Virus record (IMG/VR): IMGVR_UViG_3300037467_000752
Reading direction: 5' to 3' (one strand)
From: a virus
Lineage: Duplodnaviria > Heunggongvirae > Uroviricota > Caudoviricetes
DNA: 64,000 bases
The notes under the pieces were generated by a model. That model ran no database searches and was not told the DNA's origin. It saw only the letters and a list, made by a program, of their open reading frames with translations. Positions 1 through 64,000 of this stretch are shown here, in pieces. Position 1 is the first letter of the stretch, and each line of letters begins with the position of its first letter. The translations under genes and the position numbers were made by a program.

Positions 1-245
1 TTGAGCGGCAGGCAATTGCAGAGGACTTGTGTATCCCGCACTGCACCATCCTGAAGCAAGACATGCTGCGCGACATCATCGGCTACAAGGAAGGTGATGA
101 CGTGGTGAAGAAGTGTCTGGAGTACGCAGAAGGCCCCGGCGATAACCCCGGCGTCATGCGTGAGGGCGTGGTGTTCAAAGCCATGAATCGAGACTTCAGC
201 TTCAAATGCATTAGTAACACCTACCTGTTGAACAAGAAGGACTGA
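1..245 (+). CDS. C-terminal fragment of an ATP-dependent RNA/DNA ligase-like protein; the 5' end lies outside the window
   Basis: Open frame from position 3 with no upstream start in the window. Contains an EGVVFK motif matching nucleotidyltransferase motif IV (EGxVxK) and a C-terminal FKxISNxYLL segment resembling RNA ligase C-termini. Confidence 0.3.
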   Translation, partial: ERQAIAEDLCIPHCTILKQDMLRDIIGYKEGDDVVKKCLEYAEGPGDNPGVMREGVVFKAMNRDFSFKCISNTYLLNKKD

Positions 246-802
246 TGCGAGCAAACGTAACCCCGTTGGCAGAGTTGCAAGCTGCCTTCGTGTACGATGA
301 AACCAGCAAAAGTTGCATTCGTTTGCGCGTGGCGAAATACAGGGGCAGATATCGCAACGTGCTTGTGGGAGCAGCGGGGGATGAAGTCGGCTGTTTGCAC
401 AAGGCCAGTGGCTACTACGTGACCCGTCACAAAGGGATGCAGTTGCAGTGTCATCGCATTGCGTATTGTCTTGCCAATGCTTGCGAGCTTGACGCTGACG
501 AAGAAGTGGATCATGCGGATGGTAATAGGGCCAACAACAGGGCCGGAAACCTCTGCAAAGTCACGGCTACAGGAAACGCCAAGAACAAAGCTCGTTATAA
601 AAACAACAGTTCTGGCGTCACAGGTGTGCGAAGGTTTGTAACCAAAACTGGTTTCGAATACTACGTAGCTAGAGTAGGAAACGACCCACCCCGCTACTTC
701 TCCATCTTGGTGTTAGGTGAGCAGGGGGCATTTAATGCTGCCGTGCGTTGGCGTGAAAGTGAAGCCGAGGCTGCGGCGTACACAGAAAGGCACGGAACAT
801 GA
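245..802 (+). CDS. HNH homing endonuclease with an AP2 DNA-binding domain
   Basis: HNH motif CHRIAYCLANACELDADEEVDHADGNRANNRAGNL, then an AP2-like segment SGVTGVRR...YYVARV. The ATGA start overlaps the upstream stop. Confidence 0.7.
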   Translation: MRANVTPLAELQAAFVYDETSKSCIRLRVAKYRGRYRNVLVGAAGDEVGCLHKASGYYVTRHKGMQLQCHRIAYCLANACELDADEEVDHADGNRANNRAGNLCKVTATGNAKNKARYKNNSSGVTGVRRFVTKTGFEYYVARVGNDPPRYFSILVLGEQGAFNAAVRWRESEAEAAAYTERHGT

Positions 803-7275: not shown

Positions 7276-7304
7276 TTGCAAGGAGTGTGGCTTCGTGCTA
7301 CACT
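7276..7304 (+). promoter_or_regulatory. Candidate promoter: TTGCAA, 17-nt spacer, TACACT
   Basis: Hexamers with a 17-nt spacer located 22 nt upstream of the HNH gene RBS. Confidence 0.35.
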
Positions 7305-7326
7305 CCTTTTTCATTTTGGAGGAAGC

Positions 7327-7869
7327 ATGGAAGAAGTGTGGAAGGATGTTGTTGGGTGGGAAGGTAGCTACGAAATCTCCAGCTTTGGAAGGCTCCGCTC
7401 CAAACCATTCCTGAAACGCGGCTGCGGACGTTCCGGGCCGTTCACATTCTGGACAAAGGAGCGCATACTAAAACCGTCCTTGAACGCAGACGGCTATGTA
7501 ATTTTCAGACTTCAGCGCGACGGTGTGAGGGAGAGTGAGGGAATACACAGACTGGTTGCCATTGCATTTTTGCCCAACCCGGACAACCTGCCAGAAGTCA
7601 ATCACAAGGACTCGGTAAGAAGCAACAATCATGCGGACAATCTGGAGTGGGTGACTAGCCAACAAAATGCGCGTCATGCATTCGACAGCGGTAATCGCAG
7701 TAACGCCAGAGAGCGTCATCCGAGGGCTGTGTTGAATGAGGACTTGGTGCGCAACATTCGTACCATGTATGCCGAGGGTGCGCGAGTTGTGGACATAGCT
7801 AGGGCGTTAGGGCTACAATACTGGACAGTAAGCCGGGTTGTACATAACAGAAATTGGAAGGAAAGATAA
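7327..7869 (+). CDS. HNH homing endonuclease (NUMOD4 plus HNH_3 type)
   Basis: NUMOD4-like segment WKDVVGWEGSYEISSFGRLRS. HNH motif NHKDSVRSNNHADNLEWVTSQQN. Its stop overlaps the polymerase ATG. Confidence 0.7.
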   Translation: MEEVWKDVVGWEGSYEISSFGRLRSKPFLKRGCGRSGPFTFWTKERILKPSLNADGYVIFRLQRDGVRESEGIHRLVAIAFLPNPDNLPEVNHKDSVRSNNHADNLEWVTSQQNARHAFDSGNRSNARERHPRAVLNEDLVRNIRTMYAEGARVVDIARALGLQYWTVSRVVHNRNWKER

Positions 7870-33627: not shown

Positions 33628-36600
33628 TTATTCAGTACGTGTGACCGGCATTCCATCCGAATCCCAGCGTTGGAAGATTTTGTACAAATCTTTCGTCTTC
33701 TGGACGTTGGCAAGGTCACCATCTTTGATGATTGACTTCAAATCCTCGATAGCATCCTTCAGGTCTTTTTGGGCCTGTGCAGATTCATCGGGACTCTTCA
33801 GACGCCGCATCAACTCTACGTTATCCGCAGCCGGGATGATTCGTTCACCCGTGTGGATTTGCGCGAGCATGTCTTCCGGCACGTCATTTGTACCAACAGC
33901 AAACTTCGGCACAAGACCAGTAATCGTCGCAACTTGGTCCTGCGTGAACGTAGCGCCCATCGCTTCACCAGCCGTCTGATTAACCATTGTCTGGATGTCA
34001 TCGGGCGACATTGCGGCCCACTGTTCAACCGTCAGCGATGTTGCCGCACCCTTCACCAAGTCTGGGAGTTTCCCGTACTGTGCAAGGAACGCATTGGTGT
34101 ACGCTACCTCGTTGTTCAGCGAAGAACCGATTTGGGCCACACGTTCTGCGTTGACGTAAGTGCTACCATCCCCTACAGCGTAGCCACCCGAGGAATCAAA
34201 GCCCGGAGCAAATGTGCCCGGAGAACTGATCTTGGAAATAGCTCCGTTGCCGAAGTTGTTGGTAGTGATGCCGCTTCCGCCTGCACCACCGCCCGCGCTA
34301 GTTGTGGAGCCCGTAGCCCCCACAGCCGGGAGTCCGTGAGCCACGAAGGCTGCGGACAGTGCCGTTTGGAAGTTAGCCAGAGCCGTAGAGATAGACTTGA
34401 CAGAAGTGTCAATGCCGTTCAATGCATCAATCTGCGATTGCGCAGCGTCCACGATTGCATCCAGCCTGTCGAGGTCTGCCTGATGGCTGTCCGCGAGGGC
34501 CTTAAGCTGGTCTTCAGACGTTTGCTTAATAGCATCAATTGTATCATTGATAGCATCGATTGTCAACTGCGCCTTATCCACTTCGCCCTTAGACTTACCA
34601 GACAACGAAGCCAGTAACATACTGGTACGTGCTTGATCGCGTTGGTAGTCTTCAAGCGTAGAAAAGAAGCCTTCGCTGGGCTTAGAAACGTTCGTAAGGG
34701 CGTCCTTGAACCCAGCCACATCCGACAGATTACCTGCCTTTACTGCACCAGCTAAGAGGTTTTGAGCCTCCTTGCGGCGGGCGATGTCCAGCGCCTGTGT
34801 CTCCACGACAGTAGACTTGATCGCACTCTGAATCGCGTCAAAGATCGACTGAGCATCTTTCAACACCTGTTGGGCGGGCTTGAGCTTGGCCTGTTCGGCT
34901 TTGGTAGCCAAATCAGCTTGCTTCTTAATCGCCTCAACCTGTGCATTGTAGATACCCGTCAGACGCTTCTTTTCAGCATCCACCGAACGCTTCAAACCAT
35001 CCAGCGCAGCACTCAAGGTTTTGTCAGCCGTTTCCTTAGCAGTATCTGCCAAAGTCTTCGTGGTATCCGTCAGGTCCGAGAACGTCCCCGAGAGAGTCAG
35101 CAACTTACCGACCAGCGCATCACCCGCAGCCGTACCGTCATCCAGACTAATCACCAGAGCCTTGAATTCCTCCTTCGTCTTCGGCAATTCCAGCCCGAGA
35201 GCATGGAATTGATCCGTCAAAGTTTGCTTCAGCATCGAGTTCTTCTCCGCATCCGTGAAGAAGTTATCCACGAAGTCAGACATGCCTGTGCTCAGAGCGT
35301 CCAGTCCACCGGCACCACGGATGGTGTCAACGGACAGGTTGCTACCGTTTAGGCCAGTCTGATTGAACTGATTGCGCAGCGTCGTGAGTTGCTTGTACAC
35401 GCCAGCGATGTCGTCGGCAGAGCCCTGCAGCGTTTCAACGATATCGCCGATGTTGCTGTTAAAGCCTTCCGCAGCGACGATACTGTCACGCACCAATTCC
35501 GCAGAAACATCTCCTTGTTTGTTCTGGATATCCGAGTACGCCACTGCTTGAATGCCGAGTTGCTCAAGGACATACTGCCCCTTCTCAACTCCGGACGACA
35601 CACGAACAATGGTTTCGAAGTAGCCTTCACCGACCTTCTGGAATTCCTTCAGACCGGGCATGACTGCTTCCGCCATCACGTCACCAGCTTTGCTGAACGC
35701 AGCTTCCAATTCCTTTTGAACATCCGCGCCCGACAAACCCTTCAAGCTGATTTTCGTCAGCCCGAGTTCGTCAAGGTTCAGAGCCTTCAGGAGGTTTTCT
35801 GCAACGTCGCGGTTCACCCCGAATTGCGTACCAGCTTCAAGCACGCTGTTGAACATCGACACCAACGTGCGGGCCATGCCTTCTTTCAACGCGGGGTCGA
35901 GAGCCGACATTTGCGATTCGTTGGAGCTATCGCTGAACAGGCCGAAGAAGCTGGAAGACTCCTTGTGGATGTCTGCGTAGCCTTGGGCGTTAATACCGCC
36001 CGACAACACGTCGCCGAGCGTTTGTGCACGTGTCGGCGCGACGAGTGAGCCGCCCCTTGCCTGAAACATAGGGTTGCCATCTGCGTCTGTCAGTGGTTGC
36101 GGGGTTGACAACGCAATGCGGTCAAACGAGATACCCGAGTCTTGCAACTCAGTTGAGGACTTGCTGAAACCGAGGAAGCTCTTAGAACTACCAACACCGA
36201 TCTTCATCAGGTCCGCAGACGTGCCACGAAGACCCGCCGTAGAGGAAACGGTAGCAGCCATACCAGCGATGCCGTTGTTGATGCCGCGCAGTTGCACCAG
36301 CATTTGCGACGAGTGCGTCAGTTCGATACTGGAGTTGTTGGACAGGATGTCGAGAGCCTTGGAGAGCGATTCAGACTTAGCCGACTCGTCACCAAGGACG
36401 GTGCCGGTGCCTTGCACCGCTTGACGCTCTTTTGCAACGTCAACCGAAGCACCGCTACCACCGACAGCGAAGCCGAGCGCGGCCATAATTGCAGCCATTG
36501 CGGCGATACGAGCAAACGCTGTGTAGGGGTCGCCGCCGCCCTGATTGGTAACGGCTACGCCTGCGTTCGCCATCGACTTTGCAAAGGCAGCTTGAACTTC

Positions 36601-39600
36601 GACATCTGTACTCAGCACAGTCGATGCCGTCATTTCCTCATTACCCGCCACAGTCGCCGAAGTCACAGCTTGGGTGAAGAAGATTTTGCGAATCATCGAC
36701 TCGTAGGCCAGAGCCATTTCCATTGTGCGGTAGGTCTTCTCCAGCGCCGACAACACCTTGTAGCCTGTCGTTCCTTCCTTGAAGAAGCTCTTGGCAGCAC
36801 CAGCCATGTTCGCATAGGACTTCATTTGGCTTTGAGCAAGGTCCGATTGGGCTTGCTGTTCAACCTTCAGCGCCTTTGCGTTGTCGCCCTTAGCACGAAG
36901 CTCATTAACAATTCGCAGAGAATCCGCGTATTGCGTTTGCGCTTGCACCAGCCCGGACATAGCCGTGACCATGCCACCGATGGCCGTACCAGCAGAACCG
37001 AAGGTGTCTGTAAGAGTTTGACCGAGAGTTTGAGACTGCTGTGTGAGCGTTTCCATGTCCTTCACGAGGCCACGGCTCATACCGCCTTCGGTTTGCTTAT
37101 CCAACTCACTCAGCGCGTTCGCGCGAGCGGTCATGGCCTTTTCGAAAGCTTCTTGCACTTCCTGCGTGACGTTGCCCTCAAGGACAGCGGCTTGGAAAGC
37201 AGCGTCAGCTTGTTGGCTGTAGAAGTCGATTGTCTTCAGCGTTGCTTGACGCCGCGCTTCAACCTTTTCTGTCTCCGATGTCAGGACGGATGCAACATCA
37301 TCCGCAAGCTGCTTCTCGTTGGAGTTGTACAGGTCAGAACCAATCTTGCCAAGCTCTTTGTAGGAACTACCAAGATCGTGCAGTGCAGCCGCAGCAAGAC
37401 GGGCGCTGATGATCGTGGCTTGAGTGCTGGGGTCAAGCTCGTTCTGTGCAATCTGCAATTGAGCAAGTTGCAATGCTGTCTGCTTGCCCTTACGGCCATA
37501 GTCCGCAACGGCATCGCCGGCCTCAACGAGACTACGAGCTTCAGTCATCAAATTATCTGTGGCCTTATTGAACTTCGCTGCACGCTCCTGAGCAACAGTC
37601 ACTTCCCCGATAGCTTTCGCAATCGCCATCAGACGGTTGTAGCGGTCAGAGCCTTCTTCCACGCCCCATTGCTTAAGTAGTGCGGCAGTTTCAGCTTCCA
37701 CAACGGAAGTGAACTTGCTGTGACCTGCGTTCGCTTCTGCAAGACTTGCCGTTTCCACAGCCATCTTCTTTTGCAAGGATTCTGTCAACTCACGGAGTGC
37801 AACTTCCTTGTCATACGCAAACTTGTTGGCGTCAGCTTCAGCGGCTGCGTTCAATAGTTGTTGTTTTGTGGACTCAGAAATGGCATGTGCATACTTAGGC
37901 TCCAGCAGCAAGGCTTGCATACGCGCGGCATTGGAGTCAGCAACCACACGGGAGCCAATGGCTTCACTTTGCACGAGAGCATCAGTTTTAGCCTTGTACG
38001 CTGCGGCAGATTCATGCAACGATGCGATTTCACTCGCAATAGTGTTTTGCACGGTCTTGCTGCCTTTCACGGCCAGTTGACCGTCCTTCGCGTCCGCAAG
38101 AGCCTTAGCGCGGGCCGCTTCAGCTTGCGCAGCTTGGATCGCAGCTTGGGTGCGGGCCTCAGAACGGTTACGCGAGATAGCAATTTCCACGGCGGCCATT
38201 TGCTGATCTGCCGTGGCAGTGGCTTGCTGGAGATTGCGCATAGCGGCATCCAGTTCAACCTTGGCACGCACGCGACTGTAGCTTTGCTCGCCGTTGATCG
38301 AGAACCGACCGGGCGCAGCATCATCGTAGTTCTTTTGAGCTTCTTTGACCTTTGCTTGTGCAGCTTCGATGGCGGCTTGCTTGTTCTTCTCAGCCAACGC
38401 CAGAGCTTCACGCTCCGTTGCCGTAGCACTAGCTTCGCGGGCAGTTTTACCTTCCAACATCAGGCGGTTAACTTCTGCCATACGCTCTGCCTCCTTAGTA
38501 AGAGACTTCGCATACTCGTCCAATGTTGTCAACGCAGCACGTTGCTTCGTGTCATTCTGGTCATCCTTCTGTGTATTGTAATAAGCCCATGCAGCACCAG
38601 CCGCCAGCAATACAATACCGATGACACCCAACGAAGCTTGGAATGCGATAGCGCCAAGCCGGGCCGCAATCATGGCTTCGTTCAGGGCGACGAACGCCGT
38701 AGAGATAGACTTGATAGTTTCGATGACGAACATCGCGCTCTTGAACGCGAGGATTGCCGTCACGATGGCAGTCAGCTTGCCAATGTTGTCAGCCAACACA
38801 ACAGCCAAGTCAGCCAGCGACGTTGCAATGGACTGAATAGCTGTCTTGAACGTGTCAGACTGGAAGATTTCCTTCAGACGTGCCGAGAACACCAGCAACT
38901 GCGGCTGGATGCCATCGAACGCTGCCACAAAGGAAGTGCTGAGGGTATTCTTAACAGACTTGAATTGGTTCTCCACTGTCAGCGACATTTGCGCAGCACC
39001 GAGTGCCGTAAAGGCGTAGGAATCCGCGATACGATCCCGGAAATCCTTCAGCGCATTGCCAGCATCGTCCGTCTTCTTACGGTACATGTCCAACACTTCA
39101 ACAAGCGTCTTCAGTCCGCGCTCGTTCGCCAGTGCATCCATAGCCAGCTTCTGGTTTGCCGGGGAAAGCTGGTTCAGCCCGTCTGAAAGCTTACCAACTA
39201 CGGTTACCATGTCGAGGAAGTTGCCGTTCGCATCCTTCAGGTCTTTTTGGCTCAAGCCAATCGACTTGAACACGTTTTGCACCTTGTCTGCATTGGATGC
39301 TAATTCCTTGTAGAAGTTCTTCAGCGAAGTACCTGCAGCGGAACCTTGGATACCAAGCTGCGACAGGGCGGCGAGTCCAGTACCGATGTCCACCAGCGAA
39401 GCACCATACAGTTTGCCAACAGCGGACGCCGACTTAAAGGCTTCAGACAGAGATTCAACCGACGACATCGACACAGCCGCCGTTTTGGCGATCACGTCAC
39501 CCACGCGACCAAAACCTTCAGCGGTGTACCCCAGCGAGGTAGAAACCTGCACGAGCGTGCCAGCGGCCTTCTCAATCGAAGTACCGCCCACTGTAGCGAG

Positions 39601-40299
39601 GTTCAGCGCATCTCGAACGCCCGCCATAGCCTGCTTGGCGTTTAGGCCAGCGAGGATGAGGGTTTCAAGCGCCTTGGCGACTTCCTGTGGCCCGTACATG
39701 CCTTTGCCAAGCTCCATGACGGTAGCACGTAGTGCATCAATCGAGGCATAGGATTCTTCACCCTTCACGCGGATACCTTCCAGCGTGTTTTCAACATCCT
39801 TGCCCTGCTTCACGATGGCCGCAAAAGAAGCGCCCACGGCAATGCCCAGCGCCATCGGAACGGCACGGCCATACGTCACCCACAGTGCACCCAGCGAACC
39901 AGCGAGCCCACGGGCCATAGCATGGGCATCCTTCATGGCATCGGTGTGCGTGCGAATGGCACGAGTTTGATTCTGGATAGCGGGAGTGACCGCATTGAAG
40001 CTTGTCGTCAACTTGCCCACGGCAGAGGCGAGGGTAGCCATCGCTTGCGTGAGGGCCGTGGTCGTCGCGTTGTGACCTCCAACTTGACGATTGGCGTTCG
40101 CAACAGCTTGTTGATAGGCAATAGCGGACGCTGAACCTTTTGTAAAGGCTTGGGAAAGTTTTTCAACAGACGCTGTGAGTGTGGTGACGCGACGGTCGGC
40201 CTTACCAGCTTCCACGAACAGCTTGTTTAGCTCTGTACTGGTTTCCTTAATGCCTGTGGACCGTACCTCGACTGCGAGGGTGCTGACATCAATGCTCAT
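33628..40299 (-). CDS. Tail tape measure protein (2223 aa)
   Basis: Very long Ala/Gln/Lys-rich coiled-coil protein with internal hydrophobic segments. Located immediately downstream of the chaperone G/GT pair. Confidence 0.85.
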   Translation of the reverse strand: MSIDVSTLAVEVRSTGIKETSTELNKLFVEAGKADRRVTTLTASVEKLSQAFTKGSASAIAYQQAVANANRQVGGHNATTTALTQAMATLASAVGKLTTSFNAVTPAIQNQTRAIRTHTDAMKDAHAMARGLAGSLGALWVTYGRAVPMALGIAVGASFAAIVKQGKDVENTLEGIRVKGEESYASIDALRATVMELGKGMYGPQEVAKALETLILAGLNAKQAMAGVRDALNLATVGGTSIEKAAGTLVQVSTSLGYTAEGFGRVGDVIAKTAAVSMSSVESLSEAFKSASAVGKLYGASLVDIGTGLAALSQLGIQGSAAGTSLKNFYKELASNADKVQNVFKSIGLSQKDLKDANGNFLDMVTVVGKLSDGLNQLSPANQKLAMDALANERGLKTLVEVLDMYRKKTDDAGNALKDFRDRIADSYAFTALGAAQMSLTVENQFKSVKNTLSTSFVAAFDGIQPQLLVFSARLKEIFQSDTFKTAIQSIATSLADLAVVLADNIGKLTAIVTAILAFKSAMFVIETIKSISTAFVALNEAMIAARLGAIAFQASLGVIGIVLLAAGAAWAYYNTQKDDQNDTKQRAALTTLDEYAKSLTKEAERMAEVNRLMLEGKTAREASATATEREALALAEKNKQAAIEAAQAKVKEAQKNYDDAAPGRFSINGEQSYSRVRAKVELDAAMRNLQQATATADQQMAAVEIAISRNRSEARTQAAIQAAQAEAARAKALADAKDGQLAVKGSKTVQNTIASEIASLHESAAAYKAKTDALVQSEAIGSRVVADSNAARMQALLLEPKYAHAISESTKQQLLNAAAEADANKFAYDKEVALRELTESLQKKMAVETASLAEANAGHSKFTSVVEAETAALLKQWGVEEGSDRYNRLMAIAKAIGEVTVAQERAAKFNKATDNLMTEARSLVEAGDAVADYGRKGKQTALQLAQLQIAQNELDPSTQATIISARLAAAALHDLGSSYKELGKIGSDLYNSNEKQLADDVASVLTSETEKVEARRQATLKTIDFYSQQADAAFQAAVLEGNVTQEVQEAFEKAMTARANALSELDKQTEGGMSRGLVKDMETLTQQSQTLGQTLTDTFGSAGTAIGGMVTAMSGLVQAQTQYADSLRIVNELRAKGDNAKALKVEQQAQSDLAQSQMKSYANMAGAAKSFFKEGTTGYKVLSALEKTYRTMEMALAYESMIRKIFFTQAVTSATVAGNEEMTASTVLSTDVEVQAAFAKSMANAGVAVTNQGGGDPYTAFARIAAMAAIMAALGFAVGGSGASVDVAKERQAVQGTGTVLGDESAKSESLSKALDILSNNSSIELTHSSQMLVQLRGINNGIAGMAATVSSTAGLRGTSADLMKIGVGSSKSFLGFSKSSTELQDSGISFDRIALSTPQPLTDADGNPMFQARGGSLVAPTRAQTLGDVLSGGINAQGYADIHKESSSFFGLFSDSSNESQMSALDPALKEGMARTLVSMFNSVLEAGTQFGVNRDVAENLLKALNLDELGLTKISLKGLSGADVQKELEAAFSKAGDVMAEAVMPGLKEFQKVGEGYFETIVRVSSGVEKGQYVLEQLGIQAVAYSDIQNKQGDVSAELVRDSIVAAEGFNSNIGDIVETLQGSADDIAGVYKQLTTLRNQFNQTGLNGSNLSVDTIRGAGGLDALSTGMSDFVDNFFTDAEKNSMLKQTLTDQFHALGLELPKTKEEFKALVISLDDGTAAGDALVGKLLTLSGTFSDLTDTTKTLADTAKETADKTLSAALDGLKRSVDAEKKRLTGIYNAQVEAIKKQADLATKAEQAKLKPAQQVLKDAQSIFDAIQSAIKSTVVETQALDIARRKEAQNLLAGAVKAGNLSDVAGFKDALTNVSKPSEGFFSTLEDYQRDQARTSMLLASLSGKSKGEVDKAQLTIDAINDTIDAIKQTSEDQLKALADSHQADLDRLDAIVDAAQSQIDALNGIDTSVKSISTALANFQTALSAAFVAHGLPAVGATGSTTSAGGGAGGSGITTNNFGNGAISKISSPGTFAPGFDSSGGYAVGDGSTYVNAERVAQIGSSLNNEVAYTNAFLAQYGKLPDLVKGAATSLTVEQWAAMSPDDIQTMVNQTAGEAMGATFTQDQVATITGLVPKFAVGTNDVPEDMLAQIHTGERIIPAADNVELMRRLKSPDESAQAQKDLKDAIEDLKSIIKDGDLANVQKTKDLYKIFQRWDSDGMPVTRTE

Positions 40300-55488: not shown

Positions 55489-55712
55489 GCTATGCTTAAG
55501 CATACGCTACAGCAGGGCTAGGCCACTATTTACTAACCAAACTGACAATCCAGAGAACTGCTGTAGCGTATGCTTAAGCAGGCTGAAGCAGATGTTTCAG
55601 TAAGCTTCTTGTTAGAAGCTAGGTTAGAAGTAATGGTGGGCTTAGTTGTACGCTGAAGCATACGGCTGCAGCAGATGCTTAAGCAGGGGCTTAGTTGTGC
55701 GGTGCTGAAACG
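55489..55712. repeat. Cluster of palindromic operator-like repeats in the divergent control region
   Basis: Perfect 14-bp palindrome TATGCTTAAGCATA (55491-55504). 23-bp inverted repeat 55493-55515 / 55559-55581. Core GCTTAAGCA occurs three times. Direct repeats GGGCTTAGTTGT at 55638 and 55688. Confidence 0.6.
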
Positions 55713-62577: not shown

Positions 62578-62772
62578 ATGAAAAATATGCCCAAAGGCGG
62601 TTGGCCCACTCACTACTCCGCTGCAGCCCGTAGCTTTGGCCCTCAGCGGGACAAACGTGGTAGAATCGTCTGCAACTGTGGAGGCTATTGGTTTCCTCAT
62701 CGCAAAGGCGGGGGAGCCTGCGACCATAGCAAGACGTGCATGGAGCACAGGATGAAACGCTATGGAGAGTGA
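62578..62772 (+). CDS. Hypothetical zinc-ribbon-like protein
   Basis: Motif CNCGG...CDHSKTC. Confidence 0.35.
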   Translation: MKNMPKGGWPTHYSAAARSFGPQRDKRGRIVCNCGGYWFPHRKGGGACDHSKTCMEHRMKRYGE

Positions 62773-63262
62773 CGACGAACAGCTAGCCTGCAAACACTGC
62801 GGCAAACCCATCCTGCCGGGCGAGCCTTGGCACACTGTGTCGCAAATGCATTGGGAGTGCCACGAAGAAGCGTACCCTCCGTTGGACAAGTTGATTGCAA
62901 AGCTGGATGCGAAGTTCTACGGCCCCGATTACGTTCCTCCGAAGCCACGGAAGCGCCCATGCCGACCCGGCGACGGGCCGACAGCCCGCAAGCTTGCTAA
63001 GCGCCTTGCCGTTCTCGTGCGTGACAAGCTCGGGTACGATGTCCCTGAGGAAGACTTCTGGTTTTGGGTGCAGCCTCCCGAATATCGCGGCCCCCGCTGG
63101 GACTTGGCTGTGTGGGGCTGTCACGTCAAGAGCCCGGACATTCCGGGCGGGATGCTGATGCTCAACTCGTGGGACACGATGACCAACCTGCTGAAGGCGA
63201 AACACCTTGGCCTGACCCATGATGGCGGAATGGAATGGGGCGTGGGCGAGACGGCAGGCTAG
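62762..63262 (+). CDS. Hypothetical protein with N-terminal CxxC...H...C
   Basis: Segment CKHCGKPILPGEPWHTVSQMHWECHEE. Confidence 0.4.
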   Translation: MESDDEQLACKHCGKPILPGEPWHTVSQMHWECHEEAYPPLDKLIAKLDAKFYGPDYVPPKPRKRPCRPGDGPTARKLAKRLAVLVRDKLGYDVPEEDFWFWVQPPEYRGPRWDLAVWGCHVKSPDIPGGMLMLNSWDTMTNLLKAKHLGLTHDGGMEWGVGETAG

Positions 63263-63385
63263 CACGTAATAACCCTACAATCAGTGTGGAAATATAGGCC
63301 CGCTATGGCATCTGCTGTAGCGGGCTTTGCTGCATTTGAAGCTCAAACGAGCTACGAATGCTACTCCAATGTAGCTTTTCACAGG

Positions 63386-63521
63386 TTATCCACAGGAAGG
63401 AAGGGAGCAACGAAGTTATCCACAGGATGTCCACAGGCAAGCGGTAGCAGGCTTACGCTAGGCAGGAAAGAAGCAAAAATATAGCGGGAAGCCGCATAGA
63501 TACTGGATAAGCTGTGGATAA
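63386..63521. promoter_or_regulatory. Cluster of DnaA-box-like 9-mers
   Basis: TTATCCACA occurs twice in direct orientation (63386 and 63416), followed by TGTCCACAG. TGTGGATAA (63513) and CTGGATAA (63503) lie in inverted orientation. Confidence 0.5.
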
Positions 63522-63792
63522 GTTTCTACTTCGTAGGGGCAAATATCGAGCGAGGTTGAGAGGTTGGTTTAGTAGGGCGGCAAACGGCCCGGAATGCCCC
63601 AGCGGAGCCGATAAAGTATCGTTTAGGGCTCGTTTCAGGGCATCGGCAAGGGGTAGTGTACTCCTGTGGCCGCGCGAGCGTGTAGGGCCTCTAATCGCGT
63701 CCTGTGCCAGCCTACAAAACATCATTGGACCCTTTGCTGTTTTGATTTTTGGCCTATAATGGCCCCTTCGATCATTCATCGGAGGTGTTCCC

Positions 63793-64000
63793 ATGCGTCC
63801 CGCATTCGCCTATTACCGTGTTTCCACTCGTGAGCAGGGTGACAGCCGCAACGGCCTAGAGGCACAGGCTAAGGCCGTCCAAGCATTCGCACAGGGGGCA
63901 GGCTACAGCCTGCAGGGTGAATCCGTAGAGGTCGCCAGTGGGGGCCTGCCCCTGCCCGGGCGTCCCATCCTGCAGCGGCTGCTATTCCAAGCCCGGCACG
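63793..64000 (+). CDS. Serine recombinase (resolvase/invertase-type catalytic domain), 5' portion; continues beyond the window
   Basis: Motif AYYRVSTREQ, the Y-x-R-V-S-T-x-x-Q serine recombinase active-site pattern. Confidence 0.6.
   Translation, partial: MRPAFAYYRVSTREQGDSRNGLEAQAKAVQAFAQGAGYSLQGESVEVASGGLPLPGRPILQRLLFQARH

What the first reader, a model, noticed from the sequence alone, without database searches (positions are those of the whole stretch)
63386..63521. Cluster of consensus DnaA boxes upstream of a serine recombinase gene
TTATCCACA is the E. coli-type DnaA box consensus. Two exact copies and one near copy (TGTCCACAG) occur in direct orientation within 50 bp. Two more copies (TGTGGATAA and CTGGATAA) lie in inverted orientation 80 bp downstream. 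In a phage context this suggests a DnaA-dependent origin (phage-plasmid lifestyle), DnaA-titrated regulation of the recombinase, or proximity to the host-prophage junction.
Basis: partly seen in the sequence, partly recalled or inferred. Interest (0 to 1): 0.55.

Follow-up and report, generated by a model that had tools for sequence, protein, structure and literature searches.

The report
DnaA-box array in a lytic phage
A 136-base non-coding stretch of an uncultured 85-kb phage carries a non-random array of five binding sites for DnaA, the bacterial replication initiator. It is built like the arrays in phage T5's injection-stop region, it is not tied to the recombinase gene next to it, and its function is unproven.

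Summary
Exact TTATCCACA occurs at 63386(+), 63416(+) and 63513(-). These are the only three copies in the whole 85-kb phage contig, where 0.37 are expected.

Two weaker boxes, 63427(+) and 63502(-), each lie 2 nt from a strong box. The result is two inward-facing strong-then-weak pairs inside a 21-nt inverted repeat, plus one upstream box. The strong boxes match E. coli oriC R1 over 12 nt.

- **Prophage junction:** refuted. About 17 kb of further phage genes follow, with no host DNA.
- **Phage-plasmid origin:** unsupported. There is no rep or par gene, no AT-rich unwinding element and no iterons. The site lies in a transcription-convergent zone about 21-25 kb from the replication genes.
- **Recombinase control:** unsupported but not excluded. 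The boxes lie about 235-370 nt upstream of the predicted -10, and 80 homologous recombinase genes have no such boxes.

The same double-box composite recurs in unrelated virulent phages. It appears in T5-like injection-stop regions and 340 nt from the left end of Microbacterium Squashvirus genomes. More loosely, DnaA-box pairs in IMG/VR contigs lie near contig ends more often than expected.

My best reading (confidence 0.4) is a host-DnaA docking array of the T5 type, acting as an anchor or barrier. I classify it as a new member of a known, functionally unresolved kind.

The parts
62762..63262 (+). Last gene (166 aa, unknown function) of the rightward PhoH / ClpP / phosphoesterase / dCMP-deaminase block
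   Evidence: ORF list. No Pfam or PHROG family. Homologues at 34-64% identity sit in unrelated contexts without DnaA boxes.
63298..63325 (+). Hairpin (13-nt arms, 2-nt loop) followed by TTTG. Probable end of the rightward transcription unit, though the T-tract is weak.
   Evidence: Inverted repeat I16 (L003 10537-10564). The terminator scan did not list it because its T-run criterion was not met.
63386..63394 (+). DnaA box 1, exact TTATCCACA. The extended unit GTTATCCACAGG (63385-63396) is identical to E. coli oriC R1.
63416..63424 (+). DnaA box 2, exact, with the same 13-nt unit GTTATCCACAGGA as box 1. Outer, strong member of the left pair.
63427..63435 (+). DnaA box 3, ATGTCCACA (2 mismatches), 2 nt after box 2 (11-nt period). 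Inner, weak member of the left pair.
   Evidence: The 22-mer spanning boxes 2 and 3 recurs in other phage and metagenome contigs.
63436..63501 (.). 66-nt spacer between the two inward-facing pairs. About 50% G+C with one short A-rich patch (GGAAAGAAGCAAAAATATAG). No unwinding-element-like AT tract.
63502..63510 (-). DnaA box 4, TTATCCAGT on the minus strand (2 mismatches). Inner, weak member of the right pair.
   Evidence: Part of the 19-mer GGATAAGCTGTGGATAAGT, which is shared exactly with more than 100 T5-like phages.
63513..63521 (-). DnaA box 5, exact TTATCCACA on the minus strand. Outer, strong member of the right pair.
63413..63524 (.). Inverted repeat that carries the two double boxes (21-nt arms at 63413-63433 and 63504-63524, 81% complementary, 70 nt apart). 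As single-stranded DNA it can form a hairpin or cruciform.
   Evidence: I2. DNA fold z = -3.15, with 0 of 200 shuffles folding as well.
63755..63760 (+). TATAAT, the only good -10 element upstream of the recombinase gene (weak -35). RBS GGAGG at 63781-63785.
   Evidence: Read from the sequence. It did not pass the promoter scan's spacing rule.
63793..64000 (+). Start of a 221-aa small serine recombinase gene. It runs 458 nt past the window end. It is neighbouring context, not shown to belong to the box array.
   Evidence: Pfam Resolvase. Full length has Resolvase plus a weak Recombinase domain. PHROG DNA invertase 7.5e-33. 54% identical to the recombinase of Sphingopyxis plasmid pSM103mini.

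Best explanation
The element is a genuine docking site for the host replication initiator DnaA, carried by a virulent-type phage of about 85-87 kb that is distantly related to the Pseudomonas Otagovirus/Pakpunavirus-like myophages.

**Anatomy (shown).** There are three R1-type high-affinity boxes and two weaker boxes. One strong box lies upstream. The rest form two strong-then-weak pairs with a 2-nt gap, facing each other across a 66-nt spacer inside a 21-nt inverted repeat.

**Proposed mechanism (inferred).** DnaA nucleates on the outer strong boxes and spreads cooperatively onto the adjacent weak boxes. This would form two short, opposed DnaA oligomers that bend or bridge the spacer.

**Position (shown) and its meaning (inferred).** The array sits in non-coding DNA just after the last gene of a long rightward block, where two large transcription blocks converge. 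In the related phage vB_PseuGesM_254 the physical genome ends lie in the syntenic zone.

**Proposed function (inferred).** I propose it works like the DnaA-box pairs of the T5-family injection-stop region. That is, a DnaA-DNA complex acts as a physical anchor or barrier on phage DNA. It could tether DNA to membrane-associated DnaA, or block DNA or RNA-polymerase translocation at a module or terminus boundary. I do not think it is an oriC-like unwinding origin or an operator of the neighbouring recombinase gene.
For: **Non-random.** All three exact boxes in 85 kb fall within 136 nt; the expected number of such clusters is 6.5e-8.

**Match to known DnaA sites.** Boxes 1 and 2 are identical to oriC R1 over 12 nt and to R4 over 11 nt. 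Each weak box lies 2 nt from a strong box, giving an 11-nt period.

**Inverted-repeat design.** The boxes sit in an inverted repeat with cruciform potential.

**Same composite in unrelated phages.**
- The right arm, GGATAAGCTGTGGATAAGT, is an exact 19-mer in more than 100 T5-like genomes. There it lies in the non-coding injection-stop region, as read in slur09 and compared with T5. That region is described as holding DnaA-box pairs within inverted repeats around a 52-bp spacer (bioRxiv 10.1101/866236).
- The left pair matches Microbacterium Squashvirus phages about 340 nt from their left genome end.
- The exact 22-mer occurs in two podovirus-like IMG/VR contigs, inside clusters of about 10-13 boxes, and in 6 metagenome contigs with G+C from 45 to 68%.

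**Wider pattern in viral contigs.**
- More than 120 IMG/VR contigs have box pairs.
- 74 of the 120 fetched have at least 3 boxes.
- 62 of those 74 are intergenic.
- The flanking genes include terminases, ocr and primase-helicases.
- The pairs lie near contig ends more often than expected: 16 of 33 within 700 nt, against 6.3 expected.

**Position in this genome.** The array follows a hairpin at an operon end, as in T5, where the boxes follow the last terminal-repeat gene and its terminator. Gene order matches ventosus and PseuGes_254. In PseuGes_254 the syntenic convergent zone holds the 628-bp terminal repeats (PMC11512268).

**No phage-encoded alternative binder found.** A search with E. coli DnaA found no homologue in the phage.
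Against: - DnaA binding was not tested. The host is unknown.
- The physical ends of this genome are unknown. The terminus argument rests on synteny with relatives that are only 42-52% identical in protein sequence.
- Those relatives lack any DnaA-box cluster. PseuGes_254 has none in its whole genome, and ventosus has none in the first 50 kb, which includes the syntenic zone. The element is therefore lineage-specific, not a conserved family feature.
- There are no homologues of T5 A1, A2 or dmp. The dense direct repeats and palindromes of the T5 injection-stop region are absent.
- The role of DnaA boxes in T5 injection stop is itself an untested hypothesis (10.1101/866236; PMC13250531).
- No relative of this phage with a comparable locus was found, so purifying selection on the boxes could not be measured.
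Confidence: 0.4

Rival explanations
1. DnaA-dependent replication origin. Host DnaA bound to the opposed arrays opens nearby DNA, or recruits a helicase, to start phage replication.
For: Opposed arrays anchored by outer high-affinity boxes follow the general logic of oriC (for R1 and R4; the array layout is from established knowledge of oriC). The site is non-coding and is the only box cluster in the genome. No alternative iteron or AT-rich origin was found in the 85-kb contig. In other viral contigs some clusters flank primase/helicase genes, and in L001 the cluster lies between the packaging and replication modules.
Against: There is no AT-rich unwinding element, no 13-mers and no DnaA-trio-like repeats within or beside the array; local G+C is 45-55%. 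The site is in a transcription-convergent zone at a local maximum of cumulative GC skew (strand map). It is about 21-25 kb from the primase-helicase and DNA polymerase genes. The phage encodes its own primase-helicase. In the relative PseuGes_254 the proposed origin is an AT-rich iteron region beside the primase-helicase gene, and it contains no exact or one-mismatch match to TTATCCACA (PMC11512268). About 1.8 kb of the genome may be missing from the contig and could hold the true origin.
Confidence: 0.2
2. Regulatory or insulating element for the recombinase gene. DnaA bound upstream would couple recombinase expression to host DnaA status, or block read-through from the upstream operon. A DnaA-box roadblock to RNA polymerase is known from the asnC-mioC region (Schaefer and Messer 1988-89; cited from my own knowledge, not checked here).
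For: The array lies between the hairpin at the operon end and the recombinase gene. Boxes in both orientations could block transcription from either side. Both the boxes and the recombinase gene are absent from the cultured relatives PseuGes_254 and ventosus, so they could have arrived together.
Against: The boxes end about 235 nt upstream of the only good -10 element, and no promoter overlaps them. None of 80 homologous recombinase genes (45-60% identical) has box enrichment within 700 nt upstream: 7 one-mismatch hits in 55 kb, close to background. The homologous plasmid gene has no boxes either. The same box composite occurs in phages that have no recombinase nearby.
Confidence: 0.15
3. DnaA sink. 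Like chromosomal datA or the Bacillus DnaA-box clusters, the array would titrate DnaA as the phage genome amplifies, shutting down host initiation.
For: Three R1-grade boxes per genome, multiplied by hundreds of copies, would be comparable to the chromosomal high-affinity sites (inference from established E. coli numbers). There is no DnaA-box match anywhere else in the genome. Box clusters are widespread in viral contigs regardless of neighbouring genes.
Against: A sink needs no inverted-repeat geometry, no 11-nt phasing and no fixed position, yet these recur across phages. Five sites is a small number compared with the clusters of about 10-13 boxes in L001 and L002. No IHF-site or datA-like layout was tested. 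Close relatives do without it.
Confidence: 0.1
4. Functionless passenger. The boxes would be a remnant of horizontally acquired DNA (for example a plasmid-origin fragment that arrived with the recombinase) and are not used by the phage.
For: The element is absent from cultured relatives. The recombinase is most similar to genes in plasmids and high-G+C elements. The recombinase gene has 61% G+C against 54.6% for the surrounding phage region, L003.
Against: Three perfect 9-mers with identical 12-13-nt extended units and a symmetric paired layout argue against decay. The intergenic region is identical in five assemblies from different samples, which is weak evidence because these strains are at least 99.7% identical overall. 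No plasmid or other record shares the non-coding DNA. The same composite recurs independently in other phages.
Confidence: 0.08
5. Binding sites for the serine recombinase itself (a res- or hix-like site) or for another phage-encoded protein, resembling DnaA boxes only by coincidence.
For: Recombinase target sites often lie just upstream of resolvase genes. The gix and hix half-sites begin TTATC (own knowledge).
Against: The layout consists of direct 11-nt repeats, with arms 70 nt apart. It is not a pair of 12-14-nt inverted half-sites around a 2-4-nt core. The motif is absent upstream of 80 homologues. The identical motif occurs in phages without the recombinase, infecting hosts from different phyla. 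It also equals oriC R1.
Confidence: 0.05
6. Host-prophage junction or plasmid-prophage replicon.
For: A recombinase gene next to DnaA boxes is superficially reminiscent of P1- or N15-type plasmid prophages.
Against: The contig continues for 17 kb of phage genes and returns towards the replication module. There are no rep, par or large-integrase genes. The recombinase is a 221-aa small serine recombinase. The exact 22-mer spanning boxes 2-3 occurs in only 2 of 185,579 species genomes; I read the surrounding sequence at both sites and saw nothing phage-like, though only the first was examined for ORFs. I did not search those genomes for the phage itself.
Confidence: 0.02

Closest known systems
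DnaA-box pairs of the T5-family injection-stop (iss) region in the left terminal repeat (Heusterspreute 1987; Davison 2020, bioRxiv 10.1101/866236)
   Same: Both are non-coding arrays in a virulent, tRNA-carrying, polymerase-encoding phage. Both pair a strong box with a weak box a few nt apart, inside inverted repeats separated by a 50-70-nt spacer. Both lie just after the last gene and terminator of a transcription unit. There is an exact shared 19-mer, GGATAAGCTGTGGATAAGT.
   Different: There are 5 boxes in one inverted-repeat unit here, against about 8 in two units in T5-like phages. The surrounding forest of direct repeats and palindromes is absent. There are no A1, A2 or dmp homologues. 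A terminal-repeat location is not shown here. The phage is unrelated to Demerecviridae; its terminase, portal and primase resemble those of Otago/Pakpuna-like myophages.
E. coli oriC DnaA-oligomerisation region (R1, R4 and the arrays of weak sites spaced 2 nt apart)
   Same: The extended box sequence is identical to R1 (12 nt) and R4 (11 nt). Weak sites lie 2 nt from strong sites. There are two opposed arrays anchored by the outer strong boxes.
   Different: There is no unwinding element, no 13-mers, no IHF/Fis layout was tested, and only one weak site per array. The arrows point inward here, whereas R1 and R4 point outward in oriC. The site is in a convergent-transcription zone far from replication genes.
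Non-origin chromosomal DnaA-box clusters (E. coli datA and DARS; Bacillus subtilis DnaA-box clusters)
   Same: These are small clusters of 3-5 consensus boxes outside an origin that act by binding DnaA rather than by unwinding DNA.
   Different: Their box arrangements differ (own knowledge; not compared base by base here). They regulate the cell's own initiation, whereas here the element sits on a lytic phage.
Plasmid-prophage and plasmid origins with DnaA boxes (P1 oriR, F, pSC101, RK2)
   Same: Consensus DnaA boxes on a mobile element.
   Different: Those origins combine the boxes with Rep iterons, an AT-rich region and adjacent rep and par genes. None of these is present here.
res, hix and gix sites of small serine recombinases
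   Same: Repeated short motifs in the non-coding DNA next to a small serine recombinase gene.
   Different: The geometry is wrong and the motif is not conserved with the recombinase family.

Membership tests
High-affinity (R-type) DnaA box cluster | 9-mer matching TTATCCACA (or TTWTNCACA) | tested here: met
   Three exact matches, plus two sites with 2 mismatches.
High-affinity (R-type) DnaA box cluster | Flanking bases as in proven strong boxes | tested here: met
   GTTATCCACAGG equals oriC R1 over 12 nt, and GTTATCCACAG equals R4 over 11 nt, read from NC_000913.3.
High-affinity (R-type) DnaA box cluster | Clustering beyond chance | tested here: met
   0.37 boxes expected in 85 kb. Expected number of 3-box clusters is 6.5e-8. 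0 of 300 simulations had 2 or more boxes within 136 nt.
High-affinity (R-type) DnaA box cluster | DnaA protein binds the site | not testable with these tools
   Needs EMSA, footprinting or ChIP.
oriC-type or DnaA-dependent origin | AT-rich unwinding element, 13-mers or DnaA-trios adjacent to the boxes | tested here: not met
   G+C is 42-55% in every 60-nt window across and beside the array, with only a 20-nt A-rich patch. No tandem repeats.
oriC-type or DnaA-dependent origin | Next to replication-initiation genes, or at a strand-switch minimum of GC skew | tested here: not met
   The zone is convergent and at a local skew maximum. The primase-helicase and polymerase genes are about 21-25 kb away.
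oriC-type or DnaA-dependent origin | Supports autonomous or phage replication | not testable with these tools
   Needs an origin-cloning assay or replication-intermediate mapping.
Plasmid-prophage replicon (P1/N15-like) | rep gene with iterons, and partition genes | tested here: not met
   No such Pfam or PHROG hits in the 20 kb around the site or in the rest of the small-gene block. No iterons.
Prophage-host junction | Host genes, or att site plus integrase, beyond the boxes | tested here: not met
   Phage genes continue for 17 kb, and the contig heads back to the replication module.
T5-type iss DnaA-box array | Box pairs a few nt apart, lying in inverted repeats around a 50-70-nt spacer | tested here: met
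   2-nt gaps; 21-nt arms, 81% complementary, 70 nt apart. Compared with T5 and slur09 sequence.
T5-type iss DnaA-box array | Located in a terminal repeat, near the first-injected end | tested here: inconclusive
   The termini are unknown. Synteny with PseuGes_254 places the ends in this convergent zone (PMC11512268). There is no repeat copy in the contig.
T5-type iss DnaA-box array | Accompanying A1/A2 second-step-transfer proteins | tested here: not met
   phmmer with T5 A1, A2 and dmp against all ORFs found no hit better than E = 0.1.
Serine-recombinase target site (res/hix) | Inverted 12-14-nt half-sites around a short core, co-varying with the recombinase family | tested here: not met
   Geometry. 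80 homologues plus one plasmid homologue lack the motif.

The most novel reading that the evidence does not exclude
Paired DnaA boxes (a strong box, a 2-3-nt gap, then a weak box, often in inverted repeats) may be a widespread, convergently evolved cis-element of virulent phages, from hosts ranging from Actinobacteria to Proteobacteria. It would be placed near genome ends or module boundaries. It would use the universally conserved, membrane-associated initiator DnaA to pause, anchor or insulate incoming or replicating phage DNA. That would generalise the still-unproven T5 injection-stop idea well beyond T5. This window would be one independent instance, in a Pakpuna/Otago-like phage.
Probability: 0.2. 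Interest if true: 0.75.

Novelty: new member of a known kind. Interest (0 to 1): 0.45.

Why it matters
How phage T5 stops and restarts DNA injection has been open for about 60 years. DnaA boxes in its stop region are the main unexplained clue. An unrelated phage lineage carries the same paired-box design, down to a shared 19-mer. Similar arrays turn up near the ends of Microbacterium phage genomes and of many viral contigs. Together these suggest a general way in which lytic phages exploit the host initiator, and they offer several independent systems to test it. If the array is instead an origin or a DnaA sink, it would still be a compact, easily assayed example of a phage co-opting DnaA. For this window alone the practical result is modest: the boxes are real, they are not a prophage boundary or plasmid origin, and they are not coupled to the recombinase family.

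Tried and rejected
**Relatives with a comparable locus: none found.**
- Megablast and tblastn of the locus against cultured phages gave nothing.
- Back-translated scans of IMG/VR with the 166-aa gene and the phosphoesterase gave nothing, or only distant AT-rich phages.
- Homologues of the 166-aa protein (34-64% identical) lie in unrelated contexts, are followed directly by other genes, and have no boxes.
- Conservation of the boxes therefore could not be measured.

**Recombinase linkage: rejected.** 80 homologues and a Sphingopyxis plasmid homologue have no boxes upstream.

**RNA element.** There is no Rfam hit. The recombinase upstream region folds no better than shuffles, z = -1.7.

**Phage-encoded DnaA-like protein or T5 A1/A2/dmp.** None found, using single-sequence phmmer, which has limited sensitivity.

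**Iterons or an AT-rich origin elsewhere.** None in the 85-kb contig.

**Invertible segment.** There are no long inverted repeats around the recombinase.

**Is the 22-mer an oriC hallmark that could name the host?** No. It occurs in only 2 of 185,579 species genomes, and I did not establish that either site is an origin.

**Dead ends.**
- A crude greedy ORF map for intergenic gaps was too noisy to use.
- A repeat look-up of P0001 added nothing.
- The context of the look-alike array in the 96-kb contig L232 was uninformative.
- The JGI 87,099-nt contig that might close the genome could not be retrieved.
Full report
**1. The observation.**

- Exact TTATCCACA lies at 63386 (+), 63416 (+) and 63513 (-).
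- ATGTCCACA lies at 63427 (+), 2 nt after box 2.
- TTATCCAGT lies on the minus strand at 63502-63510, 2 nt from the 63513 box.

These are the only exact boxes in the window and in the complete 85,260-nt source contig that I reassembled. They are also the only matches to the relaxed consensus TTWTNCACA. A first-order Markov model expects 0.37 exact boxes per genome and 6.5e-8 three-box clusters. None of 300 simulated genomes had even two boxes within 136 nt.

Boxes 1 and 2 share a 13-nt unit, GTTATCCACAGGA. I fetched E. coli oriC for comparison. GTTATCCACAGG is identical to box R1 over 12 nt, and GTTATCCACAG to R4 over 11 nt.

**2. Anatomy.**

The array has one upstream strong box and two pairs. 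Each pair is a strong outer box, a 2-nt gap, then a weak inner box. The pairs face each other across a 66-nt spacer. They form a 21-nt inverted repeat (63413-63433 and 63504-63524, 81% complementary). As single-stranded DNA the region folds far better than shuffled controls, z = -3.15.

The array begins about 60 nt after a hairpin (63298-63325) that follows the last gene of a rightward block. It ends about 235 nt before the only good -10 element (TATAAT, 63755-63760) of the recombinase gene, whose ATG is at 63793.

Nothing in the array or its flanks is AT-rich enough to be an unwinding element. There are no tandem repeats, no Rfam match, and no significantly structured RNA upstream of the recombinase.

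**3. The genome.**

An exact-protein look-up recovered the source, a Logan contig of 85,261 nt in which the window occupies roughly 3560-67559.

The phage encodes:
- primase-helicase, DNA polymerase A and ribonucleotide reductase;
- DNA ligase and RNA ligase;
- NAMPT, large terminase, portal and a 2223-aa tape measure;
- PhoH, a ClpP-like protease, a phosphoesterase and dCMP deaminase;
- five tRNAs.

Its nearest cultured relatives are Pseudomonas Otagovirus/Pakpunavirus-like myophages. Identity is 42% for terminase, 45-47% for portal and 52% for primase-helicase. Gene order is the same as in phages ventosus and vB_PseuGesM_254.

Beyond the window lie the rest of a 221-aa small serine recombinase gene, 914 nt of non-coding DNA, and then about 17 kb of small minus-strand genes. 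Several of these match phage protein families (PHROGs) of unknown function. There are no host genes and no rep, par or large-integrase genes. The prophage-junction and phage-plasmid readings are therefore not supported.

The box array sits where a rightward block and a leftward block converge. This is a local maximum of cumulative GC skew. It is about 21-25 kb from the replication genes.

**4. Is the array tied to the recombinase?**

No.
- Among 80 viral contigs encoding 45-60% identical recombinases, there is no enrichment of boxes in the 700 nt upstream.
- The 54%-identical gene on Sphingopyxis plasmid pSM103mini has no boxes either.
- The geometry does not fit a res or hix site. It consists of direct 11-nt repeats, with arms 70 nt apart.

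**5. Is it conserved in relatives?**

This could not be tested properly.
- The same phage occurs in several samples with an identical intergenic region. Those strains are at least 99.7% identical overall, so this says little.
- No moderately diverged relative with a comparable locus was found.
- The distant cultured relatives have neither a box cluster nor a recombinase gene at the syntenic position. PseuGes_254 has none in its whole genome. Ventosus has none in the first 50 kb, which includes the convergent zone.

The element is therefore lineage-specific within its family.

**6. The same composite elsewhere.**

- *Exact 22-mer.* The sequence spanning boxes 2 and 3, TTATCCACAGGATGTCCACAGG, occurs in two unrelated podovirus-like IMG/VR contigs. 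There it lies inside clusters of about 10-13 boxes, in a divergent region between the packaging and replication modules. It also occurs in six metagenome contigs with G+C from 45 to 68%. One of these is a 96-kb contig with a closely similar layout: a box, 43 nt, then three boxes in a row. It occurs in only two of 185,579 bacterial species genomes.
- *T5-like phages.* A blastn of the array against cultured phages showed that the right arm, GGATAAGCTGTGGATAAGT, is an exact 19-mer in more than 100 T5-like genomes. In slur09 it lies in the non-coding stretch homologous to the T5 injection-stop region. Davison (bioRxiv 10.1101/866236) describes that region as holding about eight DnaA boxes, in pairs 3 nt apart, within inverted repeats around a 52-bp spacer. 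He proposes that membrane-bound DnaA stops first-step DNA transfer. A 2026 paper still treats the mechanism as unresolved (PMC13250531).
- *Microbacterium phages.* The left pair matches Squashvirus phages 24 of 26 nt, about 340 nt from their left genome end. A further box lies at the end of the leftward operon.
- *Viral contigs at large.*
  - 74 of those contigs have at least three boxes within 250 nt.
  - 62 of the 74 are intergenic by a crude ORF criterion.
  - The flanking genes include terminases, ocr, primase/helicases and ParB.
  - In the 33 contigs held whole, the pair lies within 700 nt of a contig end in 16, against 6.3 expected (p about 0.008). Contig ends are not necessarily genome ends.

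**7. Interpretation.**

Three lines make host DnaA by far the most economical binder:
- the sequence is identical to proven high-affinity boxes;
- the same composite recurs in phages of hosts from different phyla;
- a search with E. coli DnaA found no homologue in the phage.

What the complex does is inferred, not shown. I favour a T5-type anchor or barrier role, at about 0.4. The reasons are the shared paired-box, inverted-repeat design, the shared position just after an operon end, and synteny. In PseuGes_254 the corresponding convergent zone holds the 628-bp terminal repeats (PMC11512268).

Against this reading:
- the T5 accessory genes are absent;
- the T5-style repeat forest is absent;
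- the termini of this phage are unknown;
- close family members lack the array;
- the T5 mechanism itself is unproven.

The other readings and my confidence in each:
- An oriC-like origin (0.2) is weakened by the missing unwinding element and the convergent, replication-distal position.
- Control or insulation of the recombinase gene (0.15) is weakened by the distance to the promoter and the lack of co-occurrence.
- A DnaA sink (0.1) does not explain the conserved geometry.
- A functionless passenger (0.08) is hard to square with three perfect, symmetric units.

**8. Verdict.**

The boxes are real and highly non-random, and almost certainly a DnaA-binding array. The element is a new member of a known but functionally unresolved kind: DnaA-box arrays in the non-coding DNA of virulent phages, with the T5 injection-stop region as the best-known case. 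Interest is moderate for the window itself. It would be higher if the cross-phage pattern proves general.

Noticed in passing
L003 12252-12601 (about 1.0-1.4 kb beyond the window end): A near-consensus sigma-70 promoter (TTGACA-17-TACAAT, with TG) points into about 300 nt that has no called gene. The stretch ends at a strong bidirectional terminator hairpin. This is a candidate non-coding RNA in the 914-nt gap after the recombinase gene. It has no Rfam match.
   Followed up: partly
window 55493-55580 and 55662-55687; related copy at L003 12342-12367: A perfect 23-nt inverted repeat, TGCTTAAGCATACGCTACAGCAG, with arms 42 nt apart, plus a third copy. It lies in the divergent intergenic region between the structural/tRNA block and the PhoH block. 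It looks like an operator for a phage regulator. A related palindrome lies inside the candidate ncRNA region.
   Followed up: no
L003 14015, 17548, 19125, 20119 and L003 17100, 17505, 18344: Two motifs, GGGACAAACCCTAA and GGGTGTACTGTAA, recur in the block of small minus-strand genes after the recombinase, apparently between genes. They are probably phage-specific promoter or terminator signals.
   Followed up: no
window 63401 and 63884 (record 66960 and 67443): Independent assemblies from other samples break at these points. Two contigs (L006, L007) end at exactly the same base, 92 nt into the recombinase gene. One (L008) ends between boxes 1 and 2. This hints at population heterogeneity or a coverage drop around the recombinase. 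A JGI variant is 99.72% identical and then diverges after record 72958.
   Followed up: partly
whole contig (record 1-85260): The relaxed DnaA consensus TTWTNCACA occurs nowhere outside the cluster. I estimate about 3 matches would be expected by composition (8 x the 0.37 exact-box expectation), so this may be mild avoidance of stray DnaA boxes.
   Followed up: partly
record ends (record 1 and about 85200-85260): The contig ends 60 nt into a plus-strand gene that has its own TTGACA-17-TAGGAT promoter. Three assemblies break within about 350 nt of this point. A JGI contig of 87,099 nt exists, so about 1.8 kb of the genome may be missing. That stretch lies in the divergent region where a relative's proposed AT-rich origin sits.
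   Followed up: partly
window 33628-40299 (-): The tape-measure gene encodes 2223 aa, about three times the 777 aa of the relative vB_PseuGesM_254. This implies a much longer tail or an extended multi-domain protein.
   Followed up: no
L001 about 1950-2130; L002 2670-2850; L230 2470-2650: Unrelated podovirus-like contigs (about 40-45% G+C) carry very dense DnaA-box clusters, about 10-13 boxes at an 11-nt period in both orientations. The clusters lie in the divergent region between the packaging and replication modules. They are stronger origin or DnaA-sink candidates than the array in this window.
   Followed up: partly
window 245-802 and 7276-7869: HNH homing-endonuclease genes are inserted beside the RNA ligase/hydrolase genes and directly upstream of the DNA polymerase gene.
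   Followed up: no
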